Shown: positions 7,132-53,672 of the stretch, in pieces | Layout of the letters: each line of letters opens with the position of its first letter | How positions within the stretch are numbered: position 1 is the first letter of the stretch | DNA from: Candidatus Falkowbacteria bacterium | GTDB lineage: Bacteria > Patescibacteriota > Patescibacteriia > UBA11705 > JABHMO01 | DNA length: 64,000 bases | Direction: 5' to 3' | Assembly: GCA_018674305.1 (NCBI GenBank) | Contig: JABHAL010000007.1 | Span: 6,976 to 70,975, forward strand | The notes under the pieces: generated by a model | What the model was told of the DNA's origin: nothing | Seen by the model: the letters and a program-made list of their open reading frames with translations, nothing else | Database searches by the model: none | Program-made: the position numbers and the translations under genes

Positions 7132-10100
7132 CTATTTCAAACTATCTACATCATAATAATCTTCATGCATTTGATCAAGATCAACATCTTTAATTTCACC
7201 CTTAAACTTCTCTTCGTCACGGCGAATAACTCGTTTTATACCTTGAATCATTTTTTCCTTTTGTTGTCCTAGTCCAGTACGCAAAGTAACTTGCTGATCT
7301 TTTTTCTGAGCTTGTTCAATTCCCTTGCCCAGCTTATGCGACCTTAACTTGAAATCTTCCGTTAAATAACCAGTCTCTTCTTTCTCCAAATTAAACACTT
7401 CACTTCTCTTCTGATAATAGCCTGGCTTTTCAGCAGTAACATAATATTCCTGATTACCTACCAAGAAAGCATATCGACCCTTACCATCTGTAACCTGGGT
7501 ATCTAATAATTTATTAAACTTTGTTTCAAACACTCTAACAATAGTTCTACTTAACGTTTTTTTATTCTCCAAATCACGCACAATTCCCCAACTCTTAGGT
7601 TTATCACCTTTAGCCAGACGACTGAACAAGAAATACAAGGCAACTTGCCCGACAATAAGTAAGCCAAATTTCAAAGTTGGATTAATAATAAATGAAACAA
7701 TAGCCGCCACTGGTGCAATCAAAGTAAACAGTGTTTGTGTCTTTTTGAACCAAAACAACTTCATCACTTTTTCACCTTTTTGGGCTAATTTAATCGGATC
7801 CAGAGCAATCGGCATAGATACGGCATCACGCTCTTGAACTTCAATCACTTCTCCATAATACACATCTTCAAAATGTCCATCAGTGGTTACCTTATCTAAT
7901 ATTTTACATGGAAACTTGTAATCTTTTTTCTGAACTTCAATATAATATTTACCTGGCTTCAAAATAAATTCATAACGACCAGCCTTGTCAGTTACTTTAG
8001 TTCGTACCAATTTCTTGGTTTCCGCATTGTAAACTCGAACCACTGCTAAATCAACTGGCTTTTTACTAGCTGCGTCATAAACAATTCCCCAGCCTTTACG
8101 TCTTTTTTTAGTTAGAAGTAATAACGGCTGAGTGAATAAAAACTGTAAATATGTTAAGACACCTGCACCACTAGCGCCAGTTGCACCAACTGTAGCCAGT
8201 GAAGCTACGGAAGTTGCAGTTACTGTAGCTGCTGCTGGAGTTTTCACTGTCTCATTAGCTTTTTCCAAAGCTGGATTATCAACGGTCGCTTTCTGAACAA
8301 TTTTGGTCGTTCTAACTACCGCCTTAACTGATTTTTCAACTTCCTGTTGCGCTTTTACTACATCAACGCGAGTAATCACACTAATAACTTTAGCAATTCC
8401 TTTTGTTGTACTTTGCACAACTTTGCCATCCATTAACTTTTCAGTTTCATATATTATTTCAAATTTAATTTCTTGTTCAGTTTTATCCCAAGAATTTTTT
8501 GCATCAATATCTTCATAAATTTCAATCAACTCAGGATCCAATTTAATATTATCCGGAACATGACTTTGACCAACAACCACATCAATAATATCGTCTTTAA
8601 CAATCGGACCTTGCCAGTCATCAACAACCGGCACTCCTCCGTCGTCACCTGCATTTGGTACTACCGGCAAAGGAACTACTGGAGCTCCTGGCCCTTGATC
8701 GTCATTATCACCAGGCTGACCATCATCTCCTGGTTGCGAATCATCAGCTTGTCCTCCGTCTGCTTCTGGAATTACTGGTGGTACAACTAGTGGCGCTACT
8801 GGTGGAATAACTGGTTTTATAGGAGGAATAACCGGAGGAACGACTGGATCGTCAACTGGTTTATCAACTGGTTCGTCAACTGGCTCATCGACTGGCTCAT
8901 CAACTGGCTCATCAACTGGCTCGTCAACTGGCTCGTCGACAGGCTCATCGACTGGTTCATCAACTGGCTCGTCGACAGGCTCATCGACTGGTTCGTCAAC
9001 TGGTTCGTCAACGGGTTCATCAACTGGTGGTTGTGAAGAAACTAATAAAAATGACTCTTCGGTTGGTTCATCTGAAAGATTTTTAGCTTCATCAATCGCC
9101 TTAACCGAAACTTTATGTTCACCAGGATAATAGCTATCTTCAAATGAATAGCTCCATTTTTCAGAATCAACTACGATTGTGTCAATCAAAATCGTATCAT
9201 CCAAATATATTAAAATTTGTTTTGTGTCAGCTTTAATTTTTCCCGAAATAGTAACATCCGCTCCAATTTTATTATCAACTTCCGCTCCTACAATAATTGA
9301 CATCAAAGTAATTGACGGTGCATCTGGCGGACTGGTGTCAACTAAAATACTATGGATATCTGAATAAACATCTTCATTGGCAACTTTGATTGAATGCAAT
9401 CCATCAGCTAATGGATCACTTATTTGCCAAACAAAATTCTTATCCGGTTGAGAAACAAATGAATGAACTTCTATATCATCAACATAAACATCTACTGTCA
9501 TTAAACCCTCGGTAGAAGATCCGATTACATATGGTTTATTATTATTGGTGACCATTCCATCAGCTGGTTCGCTTAAGACGGGGGGATCTATTTCTGGATC
9601 CGGATCTGGTATTGGTATAGGTATCGGTGCTGGATCACCACCTCCACCTGATCGAGCCCCCAAAGTTATAACATTAGTACCACTAGAAAAGGAAGTCTCT
9701 ACTCCATCACCATTCCTAGTTTTAACTCGATACTGATAAGTTGTAGATTCGCTTAATCCAGTTTCTACCCATGAGTTTGTTTGTACCCAACCTGAATTTG
9801 TTCCCGCTGTAACATTTTCAAAATACAAACCAGAACTATCTGAAGTTAAATTATCAAAAGTTCCTGTCGCAGACAAAGTTATACTATCAATCAAAATATT
9901 ACTAGAACTAATACCGCTTGGTGTATTTTGCGCTGTGTAAAATATGGTCGATGAAGAGTCTACTGTAGTAGAAGTTTCATCACTGTCACCATTTCTCGCT
10001 TTGACTGTATATGAATATTGAGTATTAGCACTTAAACTAGAATTTGCCCAACTATTAGTCTGGATCCAACCAGAATTTGTACTAGCCGTAGTATTTGTAA

Positions 10101-13100
10101 AATACAAGCCAGAACTTCCTTCAGTCAAATTACCCAAAGTTCCGTCAGCAATGATAGTCAATGAAGTTGTTGACAAATCACTTTTAGTAATACCAATCGG
10201 TATGTTCTGTGAAGTATATGCGGTATAAGTTGAAGGTGATGTTTCAGTTCCTTCTTCGTTTTTAGCTTTAACACTAACTTCAATCGCTGCATTTGCGGAC
10301 AACCCGCTCTGAACCCAACCATTAGCGGAAACCCAACCACTATTATCTGCCGGTGTAGCAGTACTAGCATAATATGAATTCTGTGCACCGCCACTACTCC
10401 AGCCCCAAGTGATAGAAGCCGTCGTATTAGCACTGTGAGTTAAGCTAGTTGGTGCATCTGCATCAGTATAGGCACTGGCAGGACTTGATCCAATACCAGC
10501 CCCTTGTGCATTGGTAGCACGAACATAAACTGTATATTGAGTATTAGCATCCAATGAACTTAACTGATATTGACTGGTAGCTGAACCAACAGTAGCAAGA
10601 CGAACATCATCCGAAGAACGATAAACATCATAATCAGTTGCCCCGGTTACATCATTCCAATCCCAAGTAATTGAATCTGCATCTGCTGCACTGTTTGTAA
10701 GTCCTGTTGGCTGAGCAGGACCAGTTGTATCCTGACTACTAGCTGCTCCGTCCGCCAAGTTATTATCACCATCCCCATCGTATGAAGATGTTCTAAACTG
10801 ATAACAAGTTCCCGCAGATAGTCCAGTGACCGAATATGGTGAGGTTGCCATCACTGAAGCATTGTTATACAAAACTGTATCATAAGTAGCATCACAACCG
10901 GTATCTTGTGCAATAGCCATACCACTTGGAGTAGGGCTTGGAACACTCCAAGTTAAAGTCATTACATAGTCATCCTTGTCAGTTGCCTCGGCCACCGTGA
11001 AACTGGTAACTGTACTAGCATGAGTATATTCAGTCACAGTTGAACCAAAAGCGGTTTCCGTATTATCTCCATTTCTAGCTTTGACTTTGAAACCATATCG
11101 CGTATTTGAGGTAAGACCTGTCATTGTAACTGTTCCCCAGGCAGACGCTGTTTGATAAGTTTCTGCCGCCTCCAGACTTCCATCACCCTTAAGATATTCT
11201 CCCGACACCGTTTCTTGGATCGCATATTCAGTTGTCGAAGGATTGCCATCGCCAGCAGTAACAGCCACCTGAATTTGAGTAGTTGTAAGGCCAGTAACGG
11301 TTGGCGATGACGGAGCATTAGCAAGAGTATATTTAAAAATTGAAGCCACACTTTGCTCATTACCATAATCATCAACTGCCCAAATATCAAAATAATATTT
11401 TTCATTCACTGATAATCCAGTTATTGTTGTTGTCGTGGTTGTCCGAGTTGCCAAAGCTACATCATCACCATTATCCCATTCAACAGCACCCCCACTTCGT
11501 CCTTCAGCATCAGCTTGGAATATGCTATACCAAATTTCATAATGATTAAAATTAGTTTCAGTTGCTATTGTCCAATCTACAGTCTGGGTAGTTGTAGTAG
11601 ATGAATCCCAGGCGAAAGCAAATAATCCAGTTGGATCAACATTGTCTAAGGTCATTGTCTGATTTGCCGCAGTTCCATCAGATGTATCATCATTAACAGT
11701 AACATTAATACAATTAGTGCCGTTAGCAGAAGCCAAATCAGTATCAGAATCCCAATCAAAACTTACCGAATTAGAGCCTGATGAAGTTATTACCCGAGTC
11801 CGAGTGGTTGCAGTCGCACCTATTTGATAAGCACCACCTGCAATATCCGGAGCGCCACCGCTATCATCAAAATCAGCCGTTGCAGCCGAACCTAATATTG
11901 TAGCCGCTGACCACGGACCATCACAAGCCCCATCACTATCAGATTCATATTGAATTTTTACTTTAGTGTCATCATCATCAGCATCATCCACTTCAATTGA
12001 AATCGTCACATCCCCGGAACCGTCCGTTTTCTGGGTAGCGCTATTCACACTAACAGTAGGATTTGAATTATACGAAATTGTTGCCGAAGAATAATTCAAA
12101 TCCGTCGCCGTAATATCTTGGTAGGAAATCCCCGTTAAAGAACCACTTCTAGCAATACTCACATATTCCCCAGTATTGTCAGTAGTATCAACCGTTTCAA
12201 ATGACCAACTACCATTATTATCACCAAAAACAAGGTCATTTGCTGTCTCGTCATAAAACGCAACTTGAGGAATTGTTCCGTCAAAAAGAAGACTTACCCA
12301 ATCCTGAACCGTATAAGTTCCTGTATGAATCTGCGTACAAGTCCAGCCGGCATTATCACAGCCAGAACCCGCTGACTGATAGGCATAATACAAATCATCT
12401 GAAAGAGGGTAAGCAATACCAACCTTATCGTTACTATCAATATCCATTCCAATATTTTCATGATATATAACTCCGGTAGCAATATCATCAACAGCATAAC
12501 AGGTCCAGTCTGAGTCATTGGCACCTGCGGCGTCACAACTAGCACCACCATCACGTTTTCCATAAATAAGCTTTTTGTCATTAATGTCATTACTAACAAT
12601 ATGTGGGACATTGTTACTATCAAACTTCAAAACATTATCATTACCAATATTATTAGTGGTGTAGACATCTTCACAAGACCAATCAGATGAGGCGCACCCA
12701 CTACCACCACCACCACCAACATACCAGGCATACCGCAGATCAGCAGTATTGCTATATTTATAGAGAATACCAGGATTATTAGAATCATTCAGATCCATAC
12801 TTGGAAAAAGCCCTACTGTATTAGTACTATCAATTGTTGTACAAGCCCAATTATTGTGAGTACAAGTTGATTCAGACCCTGAACCTGTATATATAGCATA
12901 CTCTAAGTCTCCACTATAAAAATTATAAAAAGCAATCCGCGGATTGTCCGAAGTATCAAACTTCAAGGAAACGCCCAACGCCTTAGCCGTATCCACCTGA
13001 ATAGGAGTACCCCAACTACTTCCATTGTAATAAACATAATACAAATCAAAACCTGACCCTCCCGTATTGCGAGCATAAGCAATACCCGGATTACCACTAC

Positions 13101-13260
13101 TATCATAATCCAAAGAAGTATGCCAAAGATTAGTAGTATCAACAGTCGTATTTGTCCAGGAATGTGCCAGAGCAATATAGGAAATCAAAAATATCGGAAC
13201 TAATACTAAGATCCATAGTCCAATAGTTTTACAAATAAAATTTTTGTTTAATCCCTTCAT
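7132..13260 (-). CDS. Giant cell-surface protein paralog (2042 aa)
   Basis: The C-terminal ~700 aa, including the 3' ~2.2 kb of DNA, are nearly identical to 1535..6916. The N-terminus differs and has YVYY/'DSNNPGI' beta-propeller-like repeats and extra FN3 modules. Confidence 0.85.
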   Translation of the reverse strand: MKGLNKNFICKTIGLWILVLVPIFLISYIALAHSWTNTTVDTTNLWHTSLDYDSSGNPGIAYARNTGGSGFDLYYVYYNGSSWGTPIQVDTAKALGVSLKFDTSDNPRIAFYNFYSGDLEYAIYTGSGSESTCTHNNWACTTIDSTNTVGLFPSMDLNDSNNPGILYKYSNTADLRYAWYVGGGGGSGCASSDWSCEDVYTTNNIGNDNVLKFDSNNVPHIVSNDINDKKLIYGKRDGGASCDAAGANDSDWTCYAVDDIATGVIYHENIGMDIDSNDKVGIAYPLSDDLYYAYQSAGSGCDNAGWTCTQIHTGTYTVQDWVSLLFDGTIPQVAFYDETANDLVFGDNNGSWSFETVDTTDNTGEYVSIARSGSLTGISYQDITATDLNYSSATISYNSNPTVSVNSATQKTDGSGDVTISIEVDDADDDDTKVKIQYESDSDGACDGPWSAATILGSAATADFDDSGGAPDIAGGAYQIGATATTRTRVITSSGSNSVSFDWDSDTDLASANGTNCINVTVNDDTSDGTAANQTMTLDNVDPTGLFAFAWDSSTTTTQTVDWTIATETNFNHYEIWYSIFQADAEGRSGGAVEWDNGDDVALATRTTTTTTITGLSVNEKYYFDIWAVDDYGNEQSVASIFKYTLANAPSSPTVTGLTTTQIQVAVTAGDGNPSTTEYAIQETVSGEYLKGDGSLEAAETYQTASAWGTVTMTGLTSNTRYGFKVKARNGDNTETAFGSTVTEYTHASTVTSFTVAEATDKDDYVMTLTWSVPSPTPSGMAIAQDTGCDATYDTVLYNNASVMATSPYSVTGLSAGTCYQFRTSSYDGDGDNNLADGAASSQDTTGPAQPTGLTNSAADADSITWDWNDVTGATDYDVYRSSDDVRLATVGSATSQYQLSSLDANTQYTVYVRATNAQGAGIGSSPASAYTDADAPTSLTHSANTTASITWGWSSGGAQNSYYASTATPADNSGWVSANGWVQSGLSANAAIEVSVKAKNEEGTETSPSTYTAYTSQNIPIGITKSDLSTTSLTIIADGTLGNLTEGSSGLYFTNTTASTNSGWIQTNSWANSSLSANTQYSYTVKARNGDSDETSTTVDSSSTIFYTAQNTPSGISSSNILIDSITLSATGTFDNLTSDSSGLYFENVTAGTNSGWVQTNSWVETGLSESTTYQYRVKTRNGDGVETSFSSGTNVITLGARSGGGGDPAPIPIPIPDPDPEIDPPVLSEPADGMVTNNNKPYVIGSSTEGLMTVDVYVDDIEVHSFVSQPDKNFVWQISDPLADGLHSIKVANEDVYSDIHSILVDTSPPDAPSITLMSIIVGAEVDNKIGADVTISGKIKADTKQILIYLDDTILIDTIVVDSEKWSYSFEDSYYPGEHKVSVKAIDEAKNLSDEPTEESFLLVSSQPPVDEPVDEPVDEPVDEPVDEPVDEPVDEPVDEPVDEPVDEPVDEPVDEPVDEPVDKPVDDPVVPPVIPPIKPVIPPVAPLVVPPVIPEADGGQADDSQPGDDGQPGDNDDQGPGAPVVPLPVVPNAGDDGGVPVVDDWQGPIVKDDIIDVVVGQSHVPDNIKLDPELIEIYEDIDAKNSWDKTEQEIKFEIIYETEKLMDGKVVQSTTKGIAKVISVITRVDVVKAQQEVEKSVKAVVRTTKIVQKATVDNPALEKANETVKTPAAATVTATSVASLATVGATGASGAGVLTYLQFLFTQPLLLLTKKRRKGWGIVYDAASKKPVDLAVVRVYNAETKKLVRTKVTDKAGRYEFILKPGKYYIEVQKKDYKFPCKILDKVTTDGHFEDVYYGEVIEVQERDAVSMPIALDPIKLAQKGEKVMKLFWFKKTQTLFTLIAPVAAIVSFIINPTLKFGLLIVGQVALYFLFSRLAKGDKPKSWGIVRDLENKKTLSRTIVRVFETKFNKLLDTQVTDGKGRYAFLVGNQEYYVTAEKPGYYQKRSEVFNLEKEETGYLTEDFKLRSHKLGKGIEQAQKKDQQVTLRTGLGQQKEKMIQGIKRVIRRDEEKFKGEIKDVDLDQMHEDYYDVDSLK
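8842..9027 (-). repeat. In-frame 12-bp tandem repeat encoding (PVDE)n, about 14 copies
   Basis: actggctcatca units. The repeat is expanded relative to the paralog. Confidence 0.85.
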
Positions 13261-32010: not shown

Positions 32011-33663
32011 TTAACGAAGGTTGCGCACAACCACTTGCAGGGCTGTACCAAACTCTTCCAGACACTCTTCCATTGAAGTGTAAATCAATTCAATAGGATA
32101 AATATCTGGAACGTGATGCACTCCAACCATGAAATGCACAACAATGATCCCCCTAGCCAGAAGTTGTTGAGTCATTTTTCTAACCAGAGCAATATCATCT
32201 GGCCCATCATCGCAAAGAACGAGAAGTACCTTACGACGCTTGGTCGACCTAGCCAACTTTGAACCAGCGCTCTTCAACATGTGAGTATCTGAATTAGCAC
32301 CTTCACCTTCTAGGTTAACAAACCCAGAGTCTCGACTGGCTGGGCCAAAATCGTACACTGCCTCCGAACTAAAACCCCAAAGATGTCCTTCACAAGCTGG
32401 ACTTAGTCGTAAAATCGCTTCGGTAAACAGCGTAGCAATTCGTTTGGCTTTTTCCAGTTTGCTTTCACTCATTGAACCGCTGGTATCAACCGCTAAATGA
32501 ATTTCAGCGTCAATGTTACGTTCAACAATTGTTTCCGTAAAAACATCTGGAAATCCAAGCGCAATACCAGCTGCCTCATCCATATCCAGATCACCCTCAT
32601 ACTGACTATACAGCTCCGAATATTCTGGGTTTTCCAAAAATCGAAACTTTCGCATCAAGGGTTTAAGCAATTCTCTATTTTGCTGTAAATACTTTTGATA
32701 CAGCGCATGATTAGCTGAATCTGCTTTTACTTTTTTAACTTTAACATTGTTCTTTAACCCGACTGAAATTGGGCCAGGGTGAACCATGTTCAGAGATTTC
32801 AACTTTTGAGCCAGTTGTTTCAGCCCAGTGTTACGCACCGTAGCTACATGTAATTTAGCAATCTGCCTCAGCGCCTTTAACAATGCCTTGGGCAACTCCC
32901 CTTTTCCTCTTGCAAAATTGCTAAAGAACTGAGAGAAGAGCCAAAATTCAATCTCTGGCCGTTCATCTTCGGAATTCCGTATTTGCCATTCGCCAAGAAT
33001 GTTTTTGACTTTTAGAGCTCGCCAATAAAACTCTTCTGGCGTTGCCGTAACCAGGATTTTTCTACGCAACTGCTTCATTGCTCTACGAGTTTCTTTAAAC
33101 TTCGGGCTTTTGTGCCACTTAGCAGCAAAGAAAAAATCCTCATAAACATCTTCAGCTGGCCAGTTACGTAAGAACTGGTACATTTGAGCCTTATTCATGC
33201 CACGTTTAGTCAAAAAACCCTCGTACTTTTCATAGCGTGAATTTACACACAAGTACAACAATCGACCACGCAAGGCCTTAGCAAAACCAGGCGAATCATC
33301 AGCTAACAAAATATCATCCTTGCGATCCAACATGATTTGCAAGATATGATACAATGTCCGGTCTTCCTTGTCCATTGCCCTTTTCAATAACTCAGGACCA
33401 AATGGTGAAAACAGGATATGACCAGCTTCATGATAAACGCTACCATAGCCAACCTGCTCAAACCCTTTCACAAAATAGTATGGGTTCATGAAAATATCAG
33501 CCTTGCAGTCGGTAGCCGCAGTTTCAACACGGGGATCCCAAATAAACCTGAATGGCCGATTAATAATCATCGCCACATCATTGCATAGATAAGGAAACTC
33601 TCGTTCCAACAAGGCCATATCTTGTTCTGATAATGGCTTGTCAAATAAAAGGTCTGGATTCAT
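32011..33663 (-). CDS. DUF2201-like protein: N-terminal putative HExxH metallopeptidase domain plus C-terminal VWA (MIDAS) domain
   Basis: 'YHEAGHILFSPFG' (HExxH), 'HLAVDTSGSM' MIDAS DxSxS motif, 'VLLVLCDDGPDD'. Confidence 0.7.
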   Translation of the reverse strand: MNPDLLFDKPLSEQDMALLEREFPYLCNDVAMIINRPFRFIWDPRVETAATDCKADIFMNPYYFVKGFEQVGYGSVYHEAGHILFSPFGPELLKRAMDKEDRTLYHILQIMLDRKDDILLADDSPGFAKALRGRLLYLCVNSRYEKYEGFLTKRGMNKAQMYQFLRNWPAEDVYEDFFFAAKWHKSPKFKETRRAMKQLRRKILVTATPEEFYWRALKVKNILGEWQIRNSEDERPEIEFWLFSQFFSNFARGKGELPKALLKALRQIAKLHVATVRNTGLKQLAQKLKSLNMVHPGPISVGLKNNVKVKKVKADSANHALYQKYLQQNRELLKPLMRKFRFLENPEYSELYSQYEGDLDMDEAAGIALGFPDVFTETIVERNIDAEIHLAVDTSGSMSESKLEKAKRIATLFTEAILRLSPACEGHLWGFSSEAVYDFGPASRDSGFVNLEGEGANSDTHMLKSAGSKLARSTKRRKVLLVLCDDGPDDIALVRKMTQQLLARGIIVVHFMVGVHHVPDIYPIELIYTSMEECLEEFGTALQVVVRNLR

Positions 33664-33931
33664 TTTATTACCTCATTTTTTTAATGATCAATATTTTATT
33701 TAAAAAATGAAAGATTCAAGATTTAAGGTCAAAGACCCAGGAAAGGTTCAGGGCTCAAGACACGAAGAAAAAAAAGGCTTTATTATTTAGTCTAAATCCG
33801 CCTAGTCTCTTACTCCTTGAACCTTACTACTTCCCTTTCCCTTTGCTCTTGAATCCTTAACCCTTTATCTTTTATACTATTCTATTTCTAATTTCAAGTT
33901 TCTCTTGGAACCTTTGAAACCAGAAATAGAA

Positions 33932-33979
33932 GCGGGAAATGAATTTCACTTCCCGCTATGACTGATGTTTGCTAATGGT
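33932..33979. repeat. Repeat unit 0 of the structured-repeat family
   Basis: Hairpin AGCGGGAAATGAATTTCACTTCCCGCT plus downstream GTTTGCTAATGG motif. This is the same architecture as units 1-9. Confidence 0.7.
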
Positions 33980-34195
33980 GAGCTTGGGTTTGTCAGCCAC
34001 TGTCAGGCCGTAGCCTGCAGTGAAGGAAACAACAATAGCGCGTCAGCGCGACGTTGACGAGCAAAGGCCGACCTGACTGAGGCTGACTAACTGCACTCAA
34101 GCTAAACCTAACGGAACGCTTCTTACTGACATTGATACAATATCAGCTTAACGAAGATCTGATTTAGAAAAATCAGCGGTTCAAACAAACTCAGT

Positions 34196-35347
34196 CTATA
34201 TTGAAAGATCAGCAATACTTTTTCTCATTGCAGAAAAAGCTTTAGCTACTTCACTGTTGGCATCTCTGGGTTTTCGGTCCCTTGTGCCATTGACACCAAT
34301 TTCACCTTCATACCACCCCAGGAATCCCTTGATAATAGCGGACTCCAAATCAACACCATGCTTGAGCAAGTAGCCTACTGTTCGACAACCACGATAACTG
34401 GGTGAAAACGCCAAATTGCCAGCACGCTCTGCAGTTCGCAAATTACGTGCAACTTCAACAATTTTCAGAGCCTGTGATTCCAAAATGCCGACTTCAGAAG
34501 CCAGCTTTTGAGACTCATAATCCTTAGGCATCTCCCTGACCCGCATCGGTGCAAAGCGATCCTTAAGTGCCGCATCAACACCATGTGTCCCCAGATATTC
34601 ATCACCCATGTTCATAGTGCCCATAAAGTGAATATTCCCTGGCAACACAATTGTGTTACTACCTTCCGCGGTAGGAAAGGTGACCTGACGAGTGTCATCG
34701 AACAAGCCATGCATACTCTCATTAGTCTTGGCATGCACTCGGTTAATTTCATCCAGCACTACCAAAAACTGCGTTGCCAAACCTTCTCTCTCCGCAATCA
34801 TGGCGCGTTCAATGTAATCGTAAAAGCCAGAACGGATAAAAAGACTTGAGCCATTGGCTGCCGCATTGGAGCCAAACAGATCTGTGGTCTTTTTCATGGT
34901 GTAAACATCAACCTTATACGGTTGCTGCCAGCCCAAAGCCTGAGCAATGGCAAAAGGTAAAGTTGTCTTGCCAGTTCCTTTCGGTCCAATCAGCAAAACA
35001 TCAATACCTTCGTTAAGCCAAACCAACAAAGTTTTCAGGTCGAGATTCTCGATCCAAAAATTGCTCAATTCAGCAATACTTTCCCATTTCTTCAACTTTT
35101 GCACTTTGGCAACCAATTGCACAATAGCGATTTTTTGACGCCCTTTACCAGGCCGCCTTTCAACCAGTTCAACCTGCCAGACATCGCCATTTTCAATCTT
35201 GATTCCACTTGGCGGATGGTTCACTTGAACCAGGGTACTTCGCATATCTTCATCTACGAATTTCCAACCCAAGACACCACTGGCATCAAATTTTGCTCTC
35301 ACTTTCAGGATATCAGCCATTTTTACCTCTCTTTTTGTAATGTTCAA
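34196..35347 (-). CDS. MoxR-like AAA+ ATPase (AAA_5 family)
   Basis: Walker A 'LLIGPKGTGKTTL' and Walker B 'FLVVLDEINRV'. Confidence 0.8.
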   Translation of the reverse strand: MNITKREVKMADILKVRAKFDASGVLGWKFVDEDMRSTLVQVNHPPSGIKIENGDVWQVELVERRPGKGRQKIAIVQLVAKVQKLKKWESIAELSNFWIENLDLKTLLVWLNEGIDVLLIGPKGTGKTTLPFAIAQALGWQQPYKVDVYTMKKTTDLFGSNAAANGSSLFIRSGFYDYIERAMIAEREGLATQFLVVLDEINRVHAKTNESMHGLFDDTRQVTFPTAEGSNTIVLPGNIHFMGTMNMGDEYLGTHGVDAALKDRFAPMRVREMPKDYESQKLASEVGILESQALKIVEVARNLRTAERAGNLAFSPSYRGCRTVGYLLKHGVDLESAIIKGFLGWYEGEIGVNGTRDRKPRDANSEVAKAFSAMRKSIADLSI

Positions 35348-35397
35348 ATTTCCAAATTCTTATCACCTATTTAATCAAATAAGTTTCAAGAATTTGA

Positions 35398-37634
35398 GCT
35401 GGAAGTGTTACACTTCCAGCTAAGTTAGTTTGCTAAGGACCTGTAGGACCGTAACAGTTTCGCTACGAAATGAGATTTGCTCATTGTCATTCGTAACGAC
35501 TTTTCGTTACGAATGCGTAGCGACAACAGTTACGGTGCCGTAGCGTGAACCGCATGAGTCCCGAAGGGCGGGGAACGCTACGAGGACTAGCAATAATATA
35601 CTTAAACGCAAACCTTGTATTGATACAATACAAGTAAAGCTTTTGCCAAAGCTTCAAACAAACTAACTTCTAATCTCTAAATCCAATCCTTTAGCTTCAG
35701 AGATTAAAGGGGAAATGGTTCACTTCCCCTGAATCAGTTTGCTATGGCTGTTGTAGGCTTGTGAAAAACTTGCTGTCAAGAATGCAGCAAGAATTGCAGC
35801 AGGGTTGCAGCAAATTTGTCACAAGGCCGTCACGGGAACTTCCCACCGGAGTGACCGTGAGGAACCCTGGCAACACCAAATTAAACCTTAACCTTACATT
35901 GCTACAATGCAAGCAAAGGACAAAGTCCTCCAACAAACTGATTTTCAACCTTTAAATCCAAATCCTTAGATTCAAAGGTTAAAGGGGAAATGATTCACTT
36001 CCCCAAAGCTGTTTTGTTTGCATAAGGTTGCTTCTGTTTGTGACGCAAGCCGTAGGCGGGGTCACAAACCGAACCCCAGTTGCGATGCGCGACTGGGTGA
36101 GAGCACTGGCTAAACCTTAAGGGTTGTTGTCTCACTGACTTTGATAACAAAATCAACTATAACGACAACTCACTACAAGTAGTGACAACAACAAACCAAA
36201 CTACAGCTCACCTGAACAATTAAATATCAAGTTTAACTACTCAGGTAAGCCGGGGAAATGATTCACTTCCCCGGAGCTGTTTTGTTTGCATATGGTTGCC
36301 GGAGTCTGTGACACCTAAAGCGAAGTGTAGTGTCACAGATCAGGCTAGCCCCACGCCCTCAGGGGAATACGTGGGGCTGGACTGGGTACTGGCGCAACCT
36401 TATGATCGTTGTCTCACTAACTTTGCAAGTCAAAGATAGTTAAAACGACAACTCACTATAAATAGTGACAATTAACCAAACTACAGCTCACCTGAATAAT
36501 TAAAATCAATTTAACTACTCAGGTAAGCCGGGGAAATGATTCACTTCCCCGGAGCTGTTTTGTTTGCATATGGTTGCCGGAGTCTGTGACATCTAAAACG
36601 CAGTGTAGTGTCACAGATCAGTTTAGCCTCACGCCCTTTAGGGGAAACGTGGGGCTAAACTGGGGAACTGGCGCAACCTTACGATCGTTGTCTTACTAAC
36701 TTTGCTAATCAAAGCTAGTTAAAACGACAACTCACTATAAATAGTGACGATTAACCAAACTACAGCTCACTTGAATACTTTAATATAAAACACTCAAGTG
36801 AACTGGGGAATGTTGCATTCCCCATGTGCTAGTTTGCTATGGTTAATGATCCAGTCTCAGTAAAGATTTCACAGAAAACTTTCTGAGACTGGCCAGTGCA
36901 GGGGTTCCATTAACAGGCGAAGCCCGGGAGCCCAAGCTGGTAGTGGTTGGCAACTACCTATAAAAATGCCTATCTTATTTTGCTACAAAATAAGTTTTAG
37001 CAGACTTTTGCTAAAGCCCAACCAACAAACTAACTTCAACTAAAAAGCTCAAACAGATTGAACACTTTAGTTGAAGGAGGAATGCTGCATTCCTCCTAAT
37101 AAAAGTACAAATTTGCTATGGCACGAAAAGCAACGCGACATTTTGACCTTGCTTCTAAGCGAAGCGCAACAGAGAAAGGTCAAAATATAGTTCGCCATCA
37201 ACCAGGGATCGTTATCCAAACCAATCTTGATTCAAGACTGGCAGTCTACCATGATATTTACACGATTGGGTAGAATCTATAACAATCAAACAAATCTGCC
37301 AACCACTAATTTCAAATTAATTAAAAGCATTGGTTGACTGGAGAATGCTGCATTCTCCAGTAGGGGCGCTCCCCAAAAAGCTAGTTTCATTGGTTGTGAT
37401 GTTATCAGGATTTCGAAGAAATCCGGATAACTTGTGACGTTGAGGGTCGGTGGTGTTAACCAGAAAACCCGAAGCGTCAAAAAACACTGGCTGGAGCTAT
37501 CCAACCCTACAAACTTGTTTTGAATTCAAAACAAGTACGACCCGTGAAAAAGGTCAAACAAACTAGCTTTCAACTTGTAAACTTTAACTCAAAGCTACAA
37601 TTCACAAGTTGAAGGGAAACTCTAGGAGTTTCCC
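35398..37634. repeat. Tandem array of nine ~260-280-bp non-coding structured repeat units
   Basis: Unit-initial GC hairpins at 35398-35420, 35709-35729, 35984-36004, 36250-36274, 36528-36552, 36805-36823, 37076-37096, 37338-37360 and 37614-37634. Each is followed after 7-17 nt by a G/ATTTGC(T)A(W)GG motif (absent from truncated unit 9). Each unit ends with a long-range inverted repeat. Hairpin stems differ between units by paired compensatory substitutions. Units 4 and 5 are about 90% identical. Confidence 0.85.
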
Positions 37635-37654
37635 TTGTAATTATACTAGAACCA

Positions 37655-39208
37655 CTACTTCAATGCCATATGCGCCAAACTGTGAGCACTGGTATTCAAT
37701 TCACGTGGCACATGGTGAAAACGCACTGTACCAATTTCCTTAACAAGTGCCTTCACCTGTGCAACCAGGGTTCGCAAATGAGGCTTACTCACTGCAAACT
37801 TGCCGTTAAGCTGATTCACAACCAGCATACTGTCGGTAAAGCAGTCCAACTCAGCAATGCCAAGTTCTTTAGCTGCCGTCAAACCAACAATTATTGCTTG
37901 ATATTCAGCCTGATTACTTGTCGCCTTCCCAATCAGCTGGGAAATAGTTGATACTTCAGTTCGATCCTTAATCAAAACTGCACCGATACCAGCCTGGTAA
38001 GACTTCCTGGCCGCACCGTCAACAAACAATAGATTGTCACCAAGCAACTGAGAAGAAACATCACCTTGGCCGTCAATCACTACCATGCTCAACTGCTTTG
38101 CCAAATCCTGCAAACCACTCGGCAACAAGGCGTTGTCCAAATATTGCAATGACTTCGCAACCTTGCCAGCATGCAAACGATCTTCAATCTTGCCAACCAG
38201 AACGCGCAGTTTGGATGGTAGCTTCTCCGGATACAACTGACGAACCGCACCCAATGTGCCATTCACCTTACCCAGAATGTGCTCATCCCAAACTTCGATT
38301 TTGAGCCAGTTGTTAAAAGCAGCTCGTAACTGATTCACTTTCCGCGGCGCCATGGTCAAACGACCATCAGGACAAATCACGATCCCAGTTACAATCGGAA
38401 CTTCACCGGTTTCAGGACTGTAGTACTTAGTTTTGTCAGGCCGAGTGTGAGGAATAAAGCCATGCTCCTTGATTAGCGCAAGGATCTTGGCCCTCATTTC
38501 CTCTGGGATCTCTTTGTCAGAAGATACCGTAATGTCATCAAACCAAGAAGTCATGTTAAAACCCTGCAAAGGGCTTGAACTTTCGTGCAGATAACTGAAT
38601 ATAGCTGTGTCCATTTTGTAACACACAATACCCAGAATACGCGGTGAAGTTGGTGGGCCTTGCGGAAGTCGATCATGCAAACAAAGCAAATCAACTACTG
38701 CCTCCAGCATGTTCTTCACGTCATCTTCCAACCAAGTAACATCACCAAACTGTCGGAGCATGAATCGAAATGGTTTTTGCAAACACTTACGAATTCGACT
38801 GCGAAGAACTGTAGGATAAGCATTAATAATATCAACGCCAAACGCAACCTTGTTACCCATGTGCGCAGCCGCATGCTCCACGATCCCAGTTCCACCCTGG
38901 CAACCATAACGAGAAAAATGGATCGGAATCTGATCCAAAAACTGCGCCTTGATTGATCGTTGTACAGTCTTCAACTCAGCACAGGGCGCTGCAAAATAGC
39001 GATAACCCTTGCCACGACCCTTGAACTTACGCCACTCTCGGTATGCCTTTCCCTGACGAATCTTGTCCAAAGCAAAGTTCCAGCTAGCCTTATCCAGCTT
39101 AAAAAGCAGACGCAAATACTGTGCCAAACGCTCGGACAACACCAGGATGGTGCCAAAGTCCGTGTACTCGTCCAGAGGATTGACCTTTTTCTTCTTTTCC
39201 GTTGGCAT
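37655..39208 (-). CDS. Reverse transcriptase fused to a C-terminal RNase H (archaeal type 1 / RVT_3-like) domain
   Basis: RT motifs 'RYFAAPCAELKTVQRSI', 'GVDIINAYPTV', 'LPQGPPTSPRILGIVCY' and 'WFDDITVSS' (YxDD-type). RNase H motifs 'VDGAA..GIGAVL', 'SNQAEYQAII', 'CFTDSMLVV' and 'HHVPRELNTSAHSLA'. RBS AGGAGG. TTGACA -35 on the minus strand at 39282-39277. Confidence 0.85.
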   Translation of the reverse strand: MPTEKKKKVNPLDEYTDFGTILVLSERLAQYLRLLFKLDKASWNFALDKIRQGKAYREWRKFKGRGKGYRYFAAPCAELKTVQRSIKAQFLDQIPIHFSRYGCQGGTGIVEHAAAHMGNKVAFGVDIINAYPTVLRSRIRKCLQKPFRFMLRQFGDVTWLEDDVKNMLEAVVDLLCLHDRLPQGPPTSPRILGIVCYKMDTAIFSYLHESSSPLQGFNMTSWFDDITVSSDKEIPEEMRAKILALIKEHGFIPHTRPDKTKYYSPETGEVPIVTGIVICPDGRLTMAPRKVNQLRAAFNNWLKIEVWDEHILGKVNGTLGAVRQLYPEKLPSKLRVLVGKIEDRLHAGKVAKSLQYLDNALLPSGLQDLAKQLSMVVIDGQGDVSSQLLGDNLLFVDGAARKSYQAGIGAVLIKDRTEVSTISQLIGKATSNQAEYQAIIVGLTAAKELGIAELDCFTDSMLVVNQLNGKFAVSKPHLRTLVAQVKALVKEIGTVRFHHVPRELNTSAHSLAHMALK

Positions 39209-39252: not shown

Positions 39253-39282
39253 ACTTTAGCAAATTTTCTAACTTTTGTCAAG
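39253..39282 (-). promoter_or_regulatory. Putative sigma-70 promoter of the RT gene (TTGACA-17-TAAAGT)
   Basis: Read from the minus strand. The -10 element is weak. Confidence 0.3.
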
Positions 39283-52493: not shown

Positions 52494-52527
52494 AGTCTCG
52501 CAGTCAAACTGTGAGACTTTTCTTTTT
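52494..52527. terminator. Bidirectional terminator downstream of miaA
   Basis: AGTCTCGCAG..CTGTGAGACT stem with flanking A and T runs. Confidence 0.5.
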
Positions 52528-53521
52528 ATATAAAGTCGTTCACTAGATTATTCGCTTCATTATAATCCTTAATCCAATGGATTGTTTTATCTCTTTTGAA
52601 CCAGGTTAACTGCCGTTTGGCGTAACGGCGCGTATCTCGTTTAACTAAACGAACGGCCTCTACGCCGTTAATTTCATTATTTAAAAATTGACAAACCTGC
52701 CGATAACCAATACCGCTCATAGAAGAAGAACTACAGTCATAACCTTTTTTGATCAAAGACTTTACTTCTTCAACTAAACCTTCCTTCATCATTTGATCTA
52801 CTCGTTTGTCAATTTTTGCATACAGTTCTTCTCTTGGTAAAGCTATCCCAAGTTGTAAAAATTCAAATTCACCTTCCCCCACTTGAGGTTCCAATGGCTT
52901 TTTGGTTTTTAAAATAATTTCTGCCGCGCGCACAACTCTACGTGAATTGGAGGTGTCAATTTTATTTTCAATTCCTGGATCGATTTCCCTTATCTCACTT
53001 AGCAAAGCCTTAATCCCCTTTTTCTCAATCTGCTTTTCTAACCTGGCTCGAAGTTTCTCATCAAAACCGTCTAATAATTGATAATCATTTACCAATGCAG
53101 AAATATATAGTCCGGTTCCACCGACAATAATTGGCATCCGACTAGGATTGTCTTTTATAATTTGTTTAACTTGTTTTAACCAGTCGTCCAGACTAAACTC
53201 CTGATTCGGTTCAATAATATCCACCATGTATTCTTGAATTTGGTCCGAATGTTCCAAGTTTTTTTTCTTTAATCCTTGCTCCTTAATCTTTCCTGGCTCT
53301 TGGCTCTTGAATCCTGAATCCTCACCAACAAGATAATATTTTCCCTCTTTCCAAACACCTGGATCCTTGTTGGTGCCAATATCCATCTGTTTATAAACCT
53401 GGCGCGAATCTGCAGAAATCAAAAAACCGTTAAACTGTTTTGCGAGTTTGAGAGCGATACCTGATTTACCACTGGCGGTTGGACCAAGGACGATGATTAC
53501 TTTTTGTTTTTTCTTGTTCAT
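52526..53521 (-). CDS. miaA: tRNA dimethylallyltransferase
   Basis: 'VIIVLGPTASGKSGIALKLA' P-loop and 'ADSRQVYKQMDIGTNK'. The start is assigned to the ATG at 53521. Confidence 0.85.
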   Translation of the reverse strand: MNKKKQKVIIVLGPTASGKSGIALKLAKQFNGFLISADSRQVYKQMDIGTNKDPGVWKEGKYYLVGEDSGFKSQEPGKIKEQGLKKKNLEHSDQIQEYMVDIIEPNQEFSLDDWLKQVKQIIKDNPSRMPIIVGGTGLYISALVNDYQLLDGFDEKLRARLEKQIEKKGIKALLSEIREIDPGIENKIDTSNSRRVVRAAEIILKTKKPLEPQVGEGEFEFLQLGIALPREELYAKIDKRVDQMMKEGLVEEVKSLIKKGYDCSSSSMSGIGYRQVCQFLNNEINGVEAVRLVKRDTRRYAKRQLTWFKRDKTIHWIKDYNEANNLVNDFI

Positions 53522-53672
53522 AAAAACATTAAAACAATAACAATAAAACATTAACTGGTCAATAGGTTGACTTTATTCAAAATACAATTACTTAAACAAT
53601 CTATAAAGCTATTTTTTCATTTTAAAACCGTTCAAACGTTTGAACGGTTTATTGTTTTTTTGAAAATCTTTT

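What the first reader, a model, noticed from the sequence alone, without database searches (positions are those of the whole stretch)
35398..37634. Tandem array of ~270-bp non-coding units with compensatory (covarying) hairpins, a candidate multi-copy structured RNA
Sequence: nine units have spacing of 262-311 bp. Each opens with a GC-rich hairpin whose stem sequence differs between units while base-pairing is preserved: GCTGGAAGTGTTACACTTCCAGC, GGGGAAATGATTCACTTCCCC, GGGGAATGTTGCATTCCCC, GGAGGAATGCTGCATTCCTCC, CTGGAGAATGCTGCATTCTCCAG and GGGAAACTCTAGGAGTTTCCC. A conserved single-stranded motif G/ATTTGC(T)A(W)GG follows 7-17 nt later. Each unit closes with a long-range inverted repeat that also covaries (for example CTCACCTGAA...CTCAGGTAAG versus CTTCAACTAAA...TTTAGTTGAAG). 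Units 2-3 share an internal hairpin CTTRYATTG-NTA-CAATRCAAG. Unit 0 (33932-33979) sits on the other side of the MoxR gene. No ORFs of any length are present. Inference: structure-preserving divergence implies selection at the RNA (or ssDNA) level. The units may be separate ncRNA templates or guides for the adjacent RT, a retron-like msr/msd multiplied, or a new class of arrayed sRNA. This is not CRISPR: the unit is about 270 bp and there is no short repeat/spacer pattern.
Basis: seen in the sequence. Interest (0 to 1): 0.88.

Follow-up and report, generated by a model that had tools for sequence, protein, structure and literature searches.

The report
Arrayed structured RNAs beside retron-like RT
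The window holds nine tandem copies of a previously uncatalogued, roughly 270-base structured RNA gene that in candidate-phyla-radiation bacteria is found only inside a three-gene cassette (retron-like reverse transcriptase, MoxR ATPase, vWA protein), so it looks like a retron-type system with its RNA component multiplied into an array.

Summary
Eight complete ~270-nt units lie at 35398-37613, with an extra hairpin at 37614-37634, and a ninth unit lies at 33932-34196 beyond the MoxR gene. The RNA strand is minus, the same as the genes: G·U outnumbers A·C about 3:1 in helices, and minus-strand folds are always more stable.

Each unit has three modules: a linker hairpin, a 190-250-nt body closed by a 5'/3' stem (P1), and a GC hairpin (H1). 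The body has a conserved 5' domain (P2/P2b/P3) and variable long hairpins. P1, P2/P2b/P3 and H1 all show strong covariation.

In 39 related loci from Patescibacteria, a covariance model finds 97 units. All are on the gene strand, and all lie in the RT-to-MoxR gap (0-8 per locus) or the MoxR-to-vWA gap (0-4). None lies elsewhere in 397 kb. There is no Rfam match and I found no paper describing it.

The RT is closest to retron RTs and is fused to, or adjacent to, RNase H. The best reading is a retron-like system with arrayed msr/msd-like RNAs and a MoxR-vWA partner. cDNA synthesis is inferred, not shown. Phased 11-nt heptamer palindromes in the variable hairpins are unexplained.

The parts
37655..39208 (-). 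Reverse transcriptase (residues ~50-330) fused to an RNase H domain (residues ~393-516), 517 aa. It is the first gene of the cassette.
   Evidence: - Pfam: RVT_1 5.6e-8, RVT_3 2e-26, RNase_H 9e-7.
- All 25 PADLOC families shown (of 35 matched) are retron RT models, the best being RT_VI at 4e-32.
- NCBIfam: retron St85 family RT at 1e-35, which is below that family's cut-off.
- Every solved RT-domain match is a retron RT, starting with Ec86 at 2.5e-10.
- The sequence contains IVTG and WFDD.
39253..39281 (-). Promoter-like site upstream of the RT gene (TTGACA-17-TAAAGT, with TG before the second hexamer).
   Evidence: Consensus scan only. This is not evidence of function.
37614..37634 (-). Stand-alone H1-type GC hairpin (GGGAAACTCC-TAG-GAGTTTCCC on the RNA strand), 20 nt after the RT stop codon. 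It is preceded by a promoter-like ATGGCA-18-TATAAT at 37669-37640.
37338..37613 (-). Unit U8: linker hairpin 37612-37570, P1-closed body 37569-37378, small hairpin 37374-37363, H1 37360-37338.
   Evidence: Minus-strand minimum-free-energy fold gives -108.6 kcal/mol, z = -10.1. nhmmer E = 2.5e-34.
37076..37337 (-). Unit U7: linker hairpin 37336-37300, body 37299-37107, H1 37096-37076.
   Evidence: Weak covariance-model hit at 37194-37299.
36805..37075 (-). Unit U6: linker hairpin 37075-37035, body 37034-36828 (P1 is GTTAGTTTGT/GCAAACTAGC), H1 36823-36805.
36530..36804 (-). Unit U5: linker hairpin 36801-36767, body 36766-36554, H1 36550-36530. It is a recent duplicate of U4.
   Evidence: 88-92% identical to U4. 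Covariance-model hit at 36670-36807, 42 bits.
36252..36529 (-). Unit U4: linker hairpin 36524-36490, body 36489-36274, H1 36272-36252.
35984..36251 (-). Unit U3: linker hairpin 36251-36205, body 36201-36011, H1 36004-35984.
35709..35983 (-). Unit U2: linker hairpin 35983-35944, body 35943-35732 (P1 is AATCAGTTTGTTG/TAGCAAACTGATT), H1 35729-35709. The variable hairpin carries TGCNGCA repeated every 11-12 nt.
35398..35708 (-). Unit U1, the last unit before MoxR: linker hairpin 35707-35670, body 35669-35422 (P1 is 13 bp), H1 35420-35398. The long variable hairpin contains CGTNACG-type sites.
34196..35347 (-). MoxR-type AAA+ ATPase (AAA_5). The likely real start is the ATG at 35320, preceded by GAGAGG.
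   Evidence: Pfam AAA_5 3e-13. NCBIfam GvpN-like 1e-13. The ortholog in L081 was called at 374 aa. The start codon was read from the sequence.
33932..34196 (-). Unit U0: body 34196-33960, with P1 GACTGA.GTTTG/CAAAC.a.TCAGTC, and H1 33956-33932. It lies between MoxR and the vWA gene.
   Evidence: (hit at 34101-34194).
33880..33931 (-). Linker-type hairpin after U0 (arms of 18 nt, 89% complementary).
   Evidence: Inverted repeat I2.
32011..33663 (-). 550-aa protein. The N-terminal helical domain has an invariant HExGH. The C-terminal domain is a vWA/MIDAS domain with DxSxS.
   Evidence: - Alignment A1 invariant residues: H78, E79, G81, H82, D393, S395, S397.
- AlphaFold2 model: pLDDT 85.7.
- CobT profile hit at 6e-4.

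Best explanation
The array is a set of nine genes for one new family of structured non-coding RNA. They are transcribed on the minus strand together with, or just behind, the RT gene, as part of an RT(-RNase H) / MoxR ATPase / vWA-protein cassette specific to Patescibacteria.

**What is shown**
- Each unit folds on its own into three modules: a linker hairpin, a body closed by pairing of its 5' and 3' ends (P1), and a terminal GC hairpin (H1).
- P1 contains an invariant core, GUUUG/CAAAC.
- The body has a conserved 5' domain: the junction YUUG with an invariant unpaired G, then P2, P2b and P3.
- The body also has a variable 3' domain of long hairpins.

**What is inferred**
- The units work like the msr/msd RNA of retrons.
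- The retron-like RT recognises the conserved 5' domain.
- It copies part of the variable 3' domain into cDNA, and P1 brings the priming site and the template together.
- The fused or neighbouring RNase H trims the template.
- The resulting RNA-DNA-protein particles are held or remodelled by the MoxR-vWA pair, whose HExGH domain is a possible protease effector. Together they form a conflict (anti-phage) module.
- Multiplying the RNA into an array gives one RT several different variable hairpins at once.
- H1 and the linker hairpins act as insulators, 3'-end or processing modules between units.
For: **Structure and covariation**
- P3/P2/P2b: 88% of cells paired against 33-44% when the partner columns are slid. 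Covariation score is 0.55 against 0.08-0.17 slid, and 0 of 500 shuffles reach it.
- P1: 87% paired against 27-47% slid. 8 of 12 pairs have changes on both sides, including GUUUG/CAAAC switching to GUUUC/GAAAC. A permutation control agrees.
- H1: all 9 pairs covary.
- Window against its ortholog L081: substitutions are 13.4% in stems and 26.5% in loops, with 38 double compensatory changes.

**Strand**
- The minus-strand fold is more stable in all nine units.
- G·T against A·C at isolated non-Watson-Crick positions is 94:37 and 168:57. The control classes are balanced: TT about equal to AA, GG about equal to CC.
- The 5' motif occurs about 60 times on the gene strand and twice on the other strand.

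**Linkage to the cassette**
- The order RT, MoxR, vWA holds in every locus with enough sequence.
- All 97 covariance-model hits lie in the two intergenic gaps on the gene strand, and none lies elsewhere in 397 kb.

**Retron likeness**
- RT matches are listed, and the VTG motif is.
- RNase H is fused to the RT (window, L081-L084, L095, L097) or is a separate gene just upstream (L086, L087).
- Retron RTs normally lack RNase H and depend on the host enzyme (PMC8989520).
- There is an invariant unpaired G four nucleotides after P1.

**Layout**
- Conserved 5' domain plus variable 3' hairpins.
Against: - No cDNA, transcript or phenotype data exist for this system.
- The units lie downstream of the RT, whereas retron ncRNAs lie upstream.
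- The units are multi-copy, which I have not seen described for natural retrons.
- The RT scores below NCBIfam's retron cut-off: 123 bits against 235. It has HAAAH where, from my memory of retron RTs, NAxxH would be expected.
- None of the 13 retron types has MoxR or vWA partners.
- The candidate branching G is four nucleotides from the stem rather than abutting it.
- The long variable hairpins are G·U-rich on the RNA strand (14:5 and 26:10). Their heptamer sites are phased at 11.0 nt, the A-form repeat. Both suggest that the RNA duplex, not a DNA hairpin, is what selection sees.
- A defence role rests only on analogy and on the cassette's varied genomic contexts.
Confidence: 0.5

Rival explanations
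1. The units are RNA-only scaffolds or decoys. They function as RNAs and are not reverse-transcribed. Their long hairpins display one protein-binding heptamer per helical turn. They assemble or sequester a protein: the RT, the MoxR-vWA machine, or an invader's nucleic-acid-binding protein. The RT does something else, for example untemplated or protein-primed synthesis as in some defence-associated RTs.
For: - Heptamer palindromes are strongly enriched: CGTNACG 68 observed against 8.2 expected, CTGNCAG 30 against 8.5.
- Same-class spacings peak at 11, 22 and 33 nt, which matches the A-form helical repeat. A lag-11 autocorrelation gives z = 5.5.
- G·U outnumbers A·C even in the longest helices.
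- The vWA domain is closest to the MIDAS domains of NorD and Rea1, which dock AAA+ remodellers onto their substrates, including ribonucleoprotein particles.
Against: - Sequence-specific reading of an A-form RNA duplex is unusual.
- The conserved RNase H, fused or adjacent, argues that RNA:DNA hybrids are made.
- The RT belongs to the templated, retron-like branch.
Confidence: 0.27
2. The units are cis-acting mRNA elements of the operon, such as terminators, attenuators, stabilisers or REP-like intergenic repeats, and have no function of their own in trans.
For: - The units lie only in intergenic gaps of one operon and are co-oriented with it.
- H1 is terminator-like in some loci, with a CT- or T-rich tail.
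- No unit-specific promoter is evident in the linkers (and my reading of the sequence).
Against: - A 190-250-nt multi-helix body with invariant nucleotides and covarying helices is conserved across relatives whose cassette proteins are only about 40-60% identical.
- Copy number ranges from 1 to 8 in one gap.
- That is far more than a terminator or stabiliser needs. Units can also abut directly, without H1 between them.
Confidence: 0.1
3. The units are a mobile or selfish repeat (MITE-like, or remnants of a retroelement) that has accumulated next to the RT.
For: - Copy number differs between close relatives: L081 has one more unit.
- U4 and U5 are a recent duplication.
Against: - There are no copies anywhere else in the 64-kb window or in 397 kb of related loci.
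- I noted no target-site duplications or terminal inverted repeats typical of a MITE.
- The units always sit at the same two positions and in the same orientation within the cassette.
Confidence: 0.03
4. The units are templates for a de novo gene (DRT2/Neo-like), or the template repeat of a diversity-generating retroelement.
For: An RT lies next to non-coding repeats, and a closing stem could juxtapose the template ends.
Against: - No consistent stop-free frame or strand exists across units.
- No template-repeat/variable-repeat-like match of the array exists anywhere in the window; the only hit, at E = 7e-5, is a low-complexity tract in the spacer upstream of the vWA gene.
- All 25 PADLOC families shown (of 35 matched) are retron RT models, not other RT classes.
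Confidence: 0.03

Closest known systems
Retrons (RT + msr/msd ncRNA + effector; types I-XIII of Mestre et al. 2020, PMC7736814)
   Same: - The RT's best matches in PADLOC, NCBIfam and the PDB are all retron RTs, and it has the VTG motif.
- The ncRNA is adjacent to the RT and co-oriented with it.
- The RNA ends pair in a closing stem, like a1/a2.
- The 5' stem-loops are conserved (msr-like) and the 3' hairpins are long and variable (msd-like).
- Both depend on RNase H; here it is built in.
- Extra genes are present that could be effectors.
   Different: - The RNA lies downstream of the RT, not upstream.
- There are 2 to about 9 units per locus in tandem, rather than one.
- The partners are a MoxR AAA+ ATPase and an HExGH-vWA protein, which are absent from all 13 retron types.
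- RNase H is fused or adjacent.
- The RT scores below the retron family cut-off.
- No Rfam family matched the array on either strand.
- msDNA has not been shown.
ncRNA-templated defence-associated RTs (DRT2, DRT3, DRT9, DRT10)
   Same: One RT works with a dedicated structured ncRNA of 200-300 nt encoded next to it, and the system acts through cDNA synthesis rather than retrotransposition.
   Different: - Those RTs belong to the UG/Abi lineage, whereas this one is retron-like.
- They have a single ncRNA, usually upstream.
- There is no conserved open frame or short repeat template here.
- Their partners differ.
MoxR-vWA remodelling pairs (NorQ/NorD, CobS/CobT, RavA/ViaA, Rea1/Midasin)
   Same: - An AAA_5 ATPase gene is followed by a gene for a protein with a MIDAS-bearing vWA domain.
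- The fold is closest to NorD VWA and the Rea1 MIDAS domain.
- There is a CobT profile match.
   Different: - I found no report of any of these pairs being linked to an RT or to ncRNA arrays.
- The N-terminal HExGH domain matched no Pfam family at E <= 0.1.
Bacterial Y RNAs with Ro60 (Rsr)
   Same: Several tandem ncRNAs whose 5' and 3' ends form a closing stem are encoded next to a protein with a C-terminal vWA domain. This comparison is from my own knowledge.
   Different: - There is no TROVE domain. The N-terminal half carries HExGH and matches no Ro60 sequence or Pfam family. The fold searches returned only vWA matches and were uninformative about it.
- The units are two to three times longer.
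- An RT and RNase H are present.
Engineered retron arrays ('multitrons', from my own knowledge of work by the Shipman laboratory)
   Same: Several retron ncRNAs are placed in tandem and served by one RT.
   Different: Those are synthetic. This would be a natural counterpart, if the units are templates.

Membership tests
Retron | The RT belongs to the retron clade (retron-specific motifs; passes retron family models). | tested here: inconclusive
   - All best hits are retron RTs: PADLOC RT_VI 4e-32, NCBIfam St85 family 1e-35, PDB Ec86 2.5e-10.
- VTG is present.
- The NCBIfam score of 123 bits is below the cut-off of 235.
- The sequence has HAAAH where, from memory, retron RTs have NAxxH.
Retron | The ncRNA is flanked by inverted repeats (a1/a2) that pair its 5' and 3' ends. 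| tested here: met
   The P1 closing stem is 8-13 bp and shows strong covariation.
Retron | A conserved branching G lies at the end of the 5' repeat and primes cDNA through its 2'-OH. | tested here: inconclusive
   An invariant unpaired G sits four nucleotides 3' of P1, in GUUUG-YUUG. Its role cannot be tested by computation.
Retron | Production of multicopy single-stranded DNA (msDNA). | not testable with these tools
   It needs expression and nucleic-acid analysis. The indirect evidence is mixed: RNase H linkage argues for it, while G·U-rich, 11-nt-phased hairpins argue for an RNA-level function.
Retron | A single msr-msd gene lies immediately upstream of the RT in the same transcript. | tested here: not met
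   The units lie downstream of the RT and downstream of MoxR, with 1-8 and 0-4 copies respectively.
Any Rfam 15 family (including retron and RT-associated motifs) | A match at the family's gathering score. | tested here: not met
   There is no hit in the array at gathering thresholds. With E <= 10 there are only chance-level hits, below 24 bits, to unrelated families.
CRISPR / TIGR-type arrays | Short (25-50 nt) identical repeats alternating with unique spacers of similar size. | tested here: not met
   The period is 262-311 nt. The units are 70-92% alike over their whole length, with no short repeat/spacer pattern.
Y RNA / Ro60 module | A TROVE-domain protein (Ro60) is encoded next to the RNAs. 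| tested here: not met
   There is no TROVE hit by Pfam, NCBIfam or PDB sequence search. HExGH is invariant in the N-terminal half. The fold searches returned only vWA matches and do not bear on the N-terminal half.
MITE-like / dispersed repeat | Copies scattered at unrelated loci. | tested here: not met
   There are no copies outside the cassette in the 64-kb window or in 397 kb of related loci. Complete genomes were not available.
Diversity-generating retroelement | A template repeat matches a variable repeat in a nearby target gene. | tested here: not met
   No such match exists between the array and the rest of the window. The RT's best hits are retron RTs.
MoxR-vWA chaperone pair | An AAA_5/MoxR ATPase gene is adjacent to a gene for a protein with a MIDAS-containing vWA domain. 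| tested here: met
   - AAA_5 at 3e-13.
- DxSxS is invariant.
- NorD and Rea1 MIDAS are the best structural matches.

The most novel reading that the evidence does not exclude
The array is a natural multiplexed repertoire. Each unit uses the same RT-binding 5' domain but displays a different long hairpin, and each hairpin carries its own class of heptamer palindrome (CGTNACG, CTGNCAG, TGCNGCA and others) once per helical turn. The hairpins, or their RNA:DNA products, would act as a panel of baits for different invader nucleic-acid-binding or -modifying proteins. Disturbance of any one bait would release the MoxR-vWA/HExGH effector. This would be an innate sensor array built from structured RNAs: it has the array logic of CRISPR, but it works by decoy rather than by guide.
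Probability: 0.15. Interest if true: 0.92.

Novelty: new variant of a known kind. Interest (0 to 1): 0.78.

Why it matters
- It adds a large, well-supported structured RNA family to the candidate phyla radiation, a huge and little-studied part of bacterial diversity. The family has four covarying helices and about 100 examples in the 40 sequences searched here.
- If the units are templates, this is the first natural retron-type system I am aware of in which one RT serves an array of different RNAs. Engineers have had to build such arrays by hand for multiplexed genome editing.
- It links reverse transcription to a MoxR-vWA remodelling pair, a combination absent from the retron and defence-RT classifications I checked.
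- The RNase H that classical retrons borrow from the host is built in here.
- The phased palindromes give a concrete, testable handle on what the variable hairpins bind.
- Gene callers place spurious ORFs across these arrays (L084), so annotation pipelines are missing them.

Tried and rejected
Rejected by fold energies and by the G·U/A·C asymmetry.
2. **Ro60/TROVE plus Y-RNA idea for the 550-aa vWA protein.** Rejected. The protein has an invariant HExGH, no TROVE match, and its vWA domain is closest to NorD, Rea1 and CobT.
3. **DRT2/Neo-like template.** No consistent open frame.
4. **Diversity-generating retroelement.** No template/variable repeat pair.
5. **MITE-like repeat.** No dispersed copies.
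6. **Rfam.** No match at gathering scores or at E <= 10. tRNA scan: nothing in the array.
7. **Genome-contig scan with the whole RT.** It returned only RNase H-domain matches and gave no useful loci, so that scan was wasted.
8. **Phage links.** The IMG/VR scan with the RT found no relatives. A phage database search with the array gave one 35-nt hit at E = 5e-3, taken as chance.
9. **N-terminal HExGH domain.** Fold searches did not identify it, because the vWA domain dominates the hit lists.
10. **Per-unit promoters or terminators.** The scan was not significant: 10 terminator-like sites against 6.7 expected.
11. **Literature.** Seven full-text searches and look-ups in four papers found no description of an RT-MoxR-vWA cassette or of natural ncRNA arrays next to a retron-like RT. 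Absence from this library is not proof of absence.
Full report
**What is there.**
- The region lies inside a minus-strand gene cassette:
  - an RT fused to RNase H (37655-39208);
  - a 2.3-kb gap with no ORF of 100 aa or more;
  - a MoxR-type AAA_5 ATPase (34196-35347, likely start 35320);
  - a 0.5-kb gap;
  - a 550-aa vWA protein (32011-33663).
- nusG, rplK and rplA follow on the other strand, so this is a bacterial chromosome.
Successive starts are 262-311 bp apart.
- A profile of the units finds nine copies in the 64-kb window and nothing else at E<=10. Eight are at 35401-37612 and one is at 33934-34186.
- U4 and U5 are a recent duplication, 88-92% identical. The other units have diverged.

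**Strand.**
- Every unit folds more stably on the minus strand, by 8-23 kcal/mol, with z from -6.5 to -10.
- I then ran a test that does not depend on energy rules. I seeded hairpins with Watson-Crick pairs only and tabulated the isolated non-Watson-Crick positions inside them.
- On the gene strand, G·T outnumbers A·C by 94 to 37 over 25 non-redundant loci, and by 10 to 2 in the window.
- With a lower helix-length threshold the count is 168 to 57. Mismatch classes that cannot pair on either strand are balanced: TT 22 and AA 23, GG 19 and CC 21.
- On the RNA strand each unit has three top-level modules in all nine minimum-free-energy folds:
  - a body of 191-248 nt, closed by pairing of its own ends (P1);

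**A conserved family, tied to one cassette.**
- The RT has close relatives only in Patescibacteria metagenomes: Uhrbacteria, Andersenbacteria, Falkowbacteria and Parcubacteria.
- I fetched eight contexts through exact-protein look-ups.
- I fetched 33 more loci through a metagenome scan with an alignment of the vWA protein.
- In every locus with enough sequence the order is RT, MoxR, vWA. The RT-to-MoxR gap is up to 2.9 kb. The MoxR-to-vWA gap is 0.1-1.4 kb.
- The 5' motif GUUUGYUUG occurs about 60 times on the gene strand of these gaps and twice on the other strand.
- The units share a conserved 5' domain in this order:
  - P1 ending in GUUUG;
  - the junction YUUG;
  - P2 (GACCG/CGGUC), which encloses a variable hairpin;
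  - a short helix P2b;
  - an asymmetric internal loop (UUUGA opposite NAG);
  - hairpin P3, with an invariant UG/CA closing a triloop.
- After the 5' domain come long variable hairpins, then (C)C-N-A-U-C-CAAAC, which closes P1.
- The window's units are a simplified version of this plan.
- A covariance model of the 5' domain (R1) was searched over the window and 39 loci, 397 kb on both strands. It gives 97 hits at E<=0.005.
  - All are on the gene strand.
  - All lie in the RT-to-MoxR gap (0-8 per locus) or the MoxR-to-vWA gap (0-4).
  - None lies elsewhere.
- Arrays are therefore a general property of the system, not a peculiarity of this window.
- Units can abut directly, or be separated by H1 plus a second hairpin.

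**Covariation.**

| Helix set | Cells paired | Paired when slid | Covariation score | Score when slid | Shuffles reaching it |
|---|---|---|---|---|---|
| P2/P2b/P3 (20 units, 12 loci) | 88% | 33-44% | 0.55 | 0.08-0.17 | 0/500 |
| P1 (29 units) | 87% | 27-47% | 0.54 | 0.08-0.15 | 0/500 |
| H1 (23 hairpins) | 98.6% | 44-57% | 1.05 | 0.18-0.27 | 0/500 |

- In P3, 7 of 10 pairs have changes on both sides.
- In P1, 8 of 12 pairs have changes on both sides, including GUUUG/CAAAC switching to GUUUC/GAAAC in three units.
- A permutation that repeats my own search procedure with flanks from other units gives 2.1 contiguous pairs. The unit's own flank gives 3.8.
- In H1, all 9 pairs covary and a G·U is present at one position in 10 of 23 hairpins.
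- The H1 arms were picked by a folding program, so only the shuffle control is informative there.
- An alignment that owes nothing to structure is the window against its ortholog L081 (about 85% DNA identity). It shows substitutions at 13.4% of stem positions and 26.5% of loop positions. There are 38 double compensatory changes, where by my rough estimate about 5 would be expected by chance.

**Known families.**
- Rfam 15 has no match, and the tRNA scan finds nothing in the array.
- Seven literature searches and look-ups in four papers found no description. The papers included the retron classification (PMC7736814) and the UG/Abi classification (PMC9226505).

**The proteins.**
- The RT's best hits are retron RTs in every library:
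  - PADLOC RT_VI at 4e-32, with all 25 families shown (of 35 matched) being retron RT models;
  - NCBIfam St85-family at 1e-35, below the family cut-off;
  - PDB Ec86, Ec78/St85, Kva2, Ec67 and Ec83.
- The RT has VTG and a WFDD catalytic box.
- RNase H is fused to the RT in the window and several relatives. It is a separate gene just upstream in L086 and L087. This fusion/fission pattern argues for a functional link.
- Classical retron RTs lack RNase H and rely on host RNase H1 (PMC8989520).
- The 550-aa protein has an invariant HExGH in its helical N-terminal half and a MIDAS motif in its vWA domain.
- Its AlphaFold2 model (pLDDT 85.7) is closest to NorD VWA in the NorQ-NorD complex and to the Rea1/MDN1 MIDAS domain. 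A profile search also hits CobT.
- It is therefore the adaptor half of a MoxR-vWA remodelling pair, with a possible metallopeptidase domain.
- The family is small: 43 cluster representatives at E<=1e-30 among 1.84 billion.

**How it most likely works.**
- Shown:
  - a modular, covarying RNA fold on the gene strand;
  - strict linkage to the cassette;
  - a retron-like RT with RNase H.
- Inferred:
  - the conserved 5' domain is the RT's handle (msr-like);
  - the variable hairpins are the payload (msd-like);
  - P1 plays the part of the retron a1/a2 stem;
  - the invariant unpaired G after P1 is a candidate priming nucleotide;
  - RNase H trims the template;
  - MoxR-vWA holds or remodels the particle and controls an effector;
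  - H1 and the linker hairpins let neighbouring units fold independently and may define 3' ends.
- I put this retron-like reading at about 0.5.
- The main rival, at about 0.27, is that the RNAs act as RNAs. This rests on an observation the retron model does not explain.
  - The variable hairpins are enriched eight-fold for the heptamer palindrome CGTNACG (68 observed, 8.2 expected).
  - They are enriched three-fold for CTGNCAG, TGTNACA and TGANTCA.
  - Copies of one class follow each other at 11, 22 and 33 nt (lag-11 autocorrelation z = 5.5).
  - This is the helical repeat of an A-form duplex, so it places one site per turn on one face.
- Together with the G·U bias in the longest helices, this points to selection on the RNA duplex or an RNA:DNA hybrid, not on a B-form DNA hairpin.

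**Rejected alternatives.**
- Not a MITE: no dispersed copies.
- Not CRISPR-like.
- Not a Y-RNA/Ro60 module: no TROVE domain.
- Not a DRT2-type gene template: no consistent open frame.
- Not a diversity-generating retroelement: no template/variable repeat pair.
- No similarity to phage sequences.

**Verdict.**
- It is a new, conserved family of structured RNAs, arrayed in up to eight or more copies. It belongs to an undescribed retron-related RT / RNase H / MoxR / vWA system of candidate-phyla-radiation bacteria.
- I rate it a new variant of a known kind (RT plus dedicated ncRNA). The interest is high because of three things:
  - the natural arraying of the RNAs;
  - the new protein partners;
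  - the unexplained phased palindromes.

Noticed in passing
window 35440-35540 (U1), 35777-35813 (U2), 33985-34090 (U0); also L092 2500-2650, L119 1040-1190 and 2700-2800, L084 4580-4680, L100 4270-4380: The long variable hairpins carry 7-nt palindromes with a free centre, repeated every 11 nt. Counts are CGTNACG 68 observed against 8.2 expected, CTGNCAG 30 against 8.5, and TGCNGCA 17 against 8.2. Same-class spacings peak at 11, 22 and 33 nt. The function is unknown. The pattern suggests one protein-binding site per turn of an A-form helix, or growth of the hairpins by 11-nt duplications.
   Followed up: partly
window 37655-38030 (RNase H part of the RT); L086 6365-6790; L087 6365-6790: The RNase H domain is fused to the C-terminus of the RT in some relatives. 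In others it is a separate 141-aa gene immediately upstream of the RT.
   Followed up: partly
window 33420-33440 (codons 78-82 of the vWA protein): An invariant HExGH (zincin-type motif) and several invariant acidic residues lie in the N-terminal helical domain of the vWA protein. No Pfam family matched it and no structural match was identified. It could be a protease effector.
   Followed up: partly
H1 hairpins, e.g. window 35709-35729, 35984-36004; L094 6840-6860; L118 2224-2246; L097 ~3080: H1 keeps a sequence consensus across distant loci, GGGGARGUG-loop-CAYYUCCCC, with a conserved G·U. Its 5' arm resembles a Shine-Dalgarno sequence (GGAGGUG) and its 3' arm resembles the anti-Shine-Dalgarno sequence. 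In some loci a CU- or U-rich tail makes it terminator-like.
   Followed up: no
L089 6634-6766, L090 6611-6742, L092 5466-5599: The last unit before the vWA gene shares a distinctive inner hairpin (GCUC...GAGCGCACA) in three otherwise different loci. This hints at position-specific sub-families of units.
   Followed up: no
L081 2972-3208 and about 4060-4308, compared with window 35348-37654: The closest relative (RT 94% identical) has a 280-bp longer array, one more unit, but is otherwise colinear at 83-88% DNA identity. Arrays therefore gain or lose whole units on a short timescale.
   Followed up: partly
L084 3111-3671 (-) and 3692-4468 (+): Gene callers placed 186-aa and 258-aa 'genes' across a GC-rich array that in fact holds five covariance-model hits. 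These arrays are therefore likely mis-annotated as hypothetical proteins in public records.
   Followed up: partly
proteins P0194, P0213, P0227, P0265 and others: Distant relatives of the whole 550-aa protein (E about 1e-17 to 1e-22) form the C-terminal third of proteins of 1100-1700 aa. I did not examine what they are fused to.
   Followed up: no
window 37640-37669 (-): A promoter-like site (ATGGCA-18-TATAAT) overlaps the end of the RT gene, just before the first hairpin of the array. The array might therefore also be transcribed independently of the RT.
   Followed up: no
window 1535-6916 and 7132-13260 (-): Two very large ORFs (1793 and 2042 aa) lie upstream in the window. They were not examined.
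   Followed up: no
window 33713-33864 compared with 53259-53322: There is a weak similarity (E = 7e-5) between the pyrimidine-rich spacer upstream of the vWA gene and a low-complexity stretch inside the ORF at 52526-53551. I judged it compositional.
   Followed up: partly
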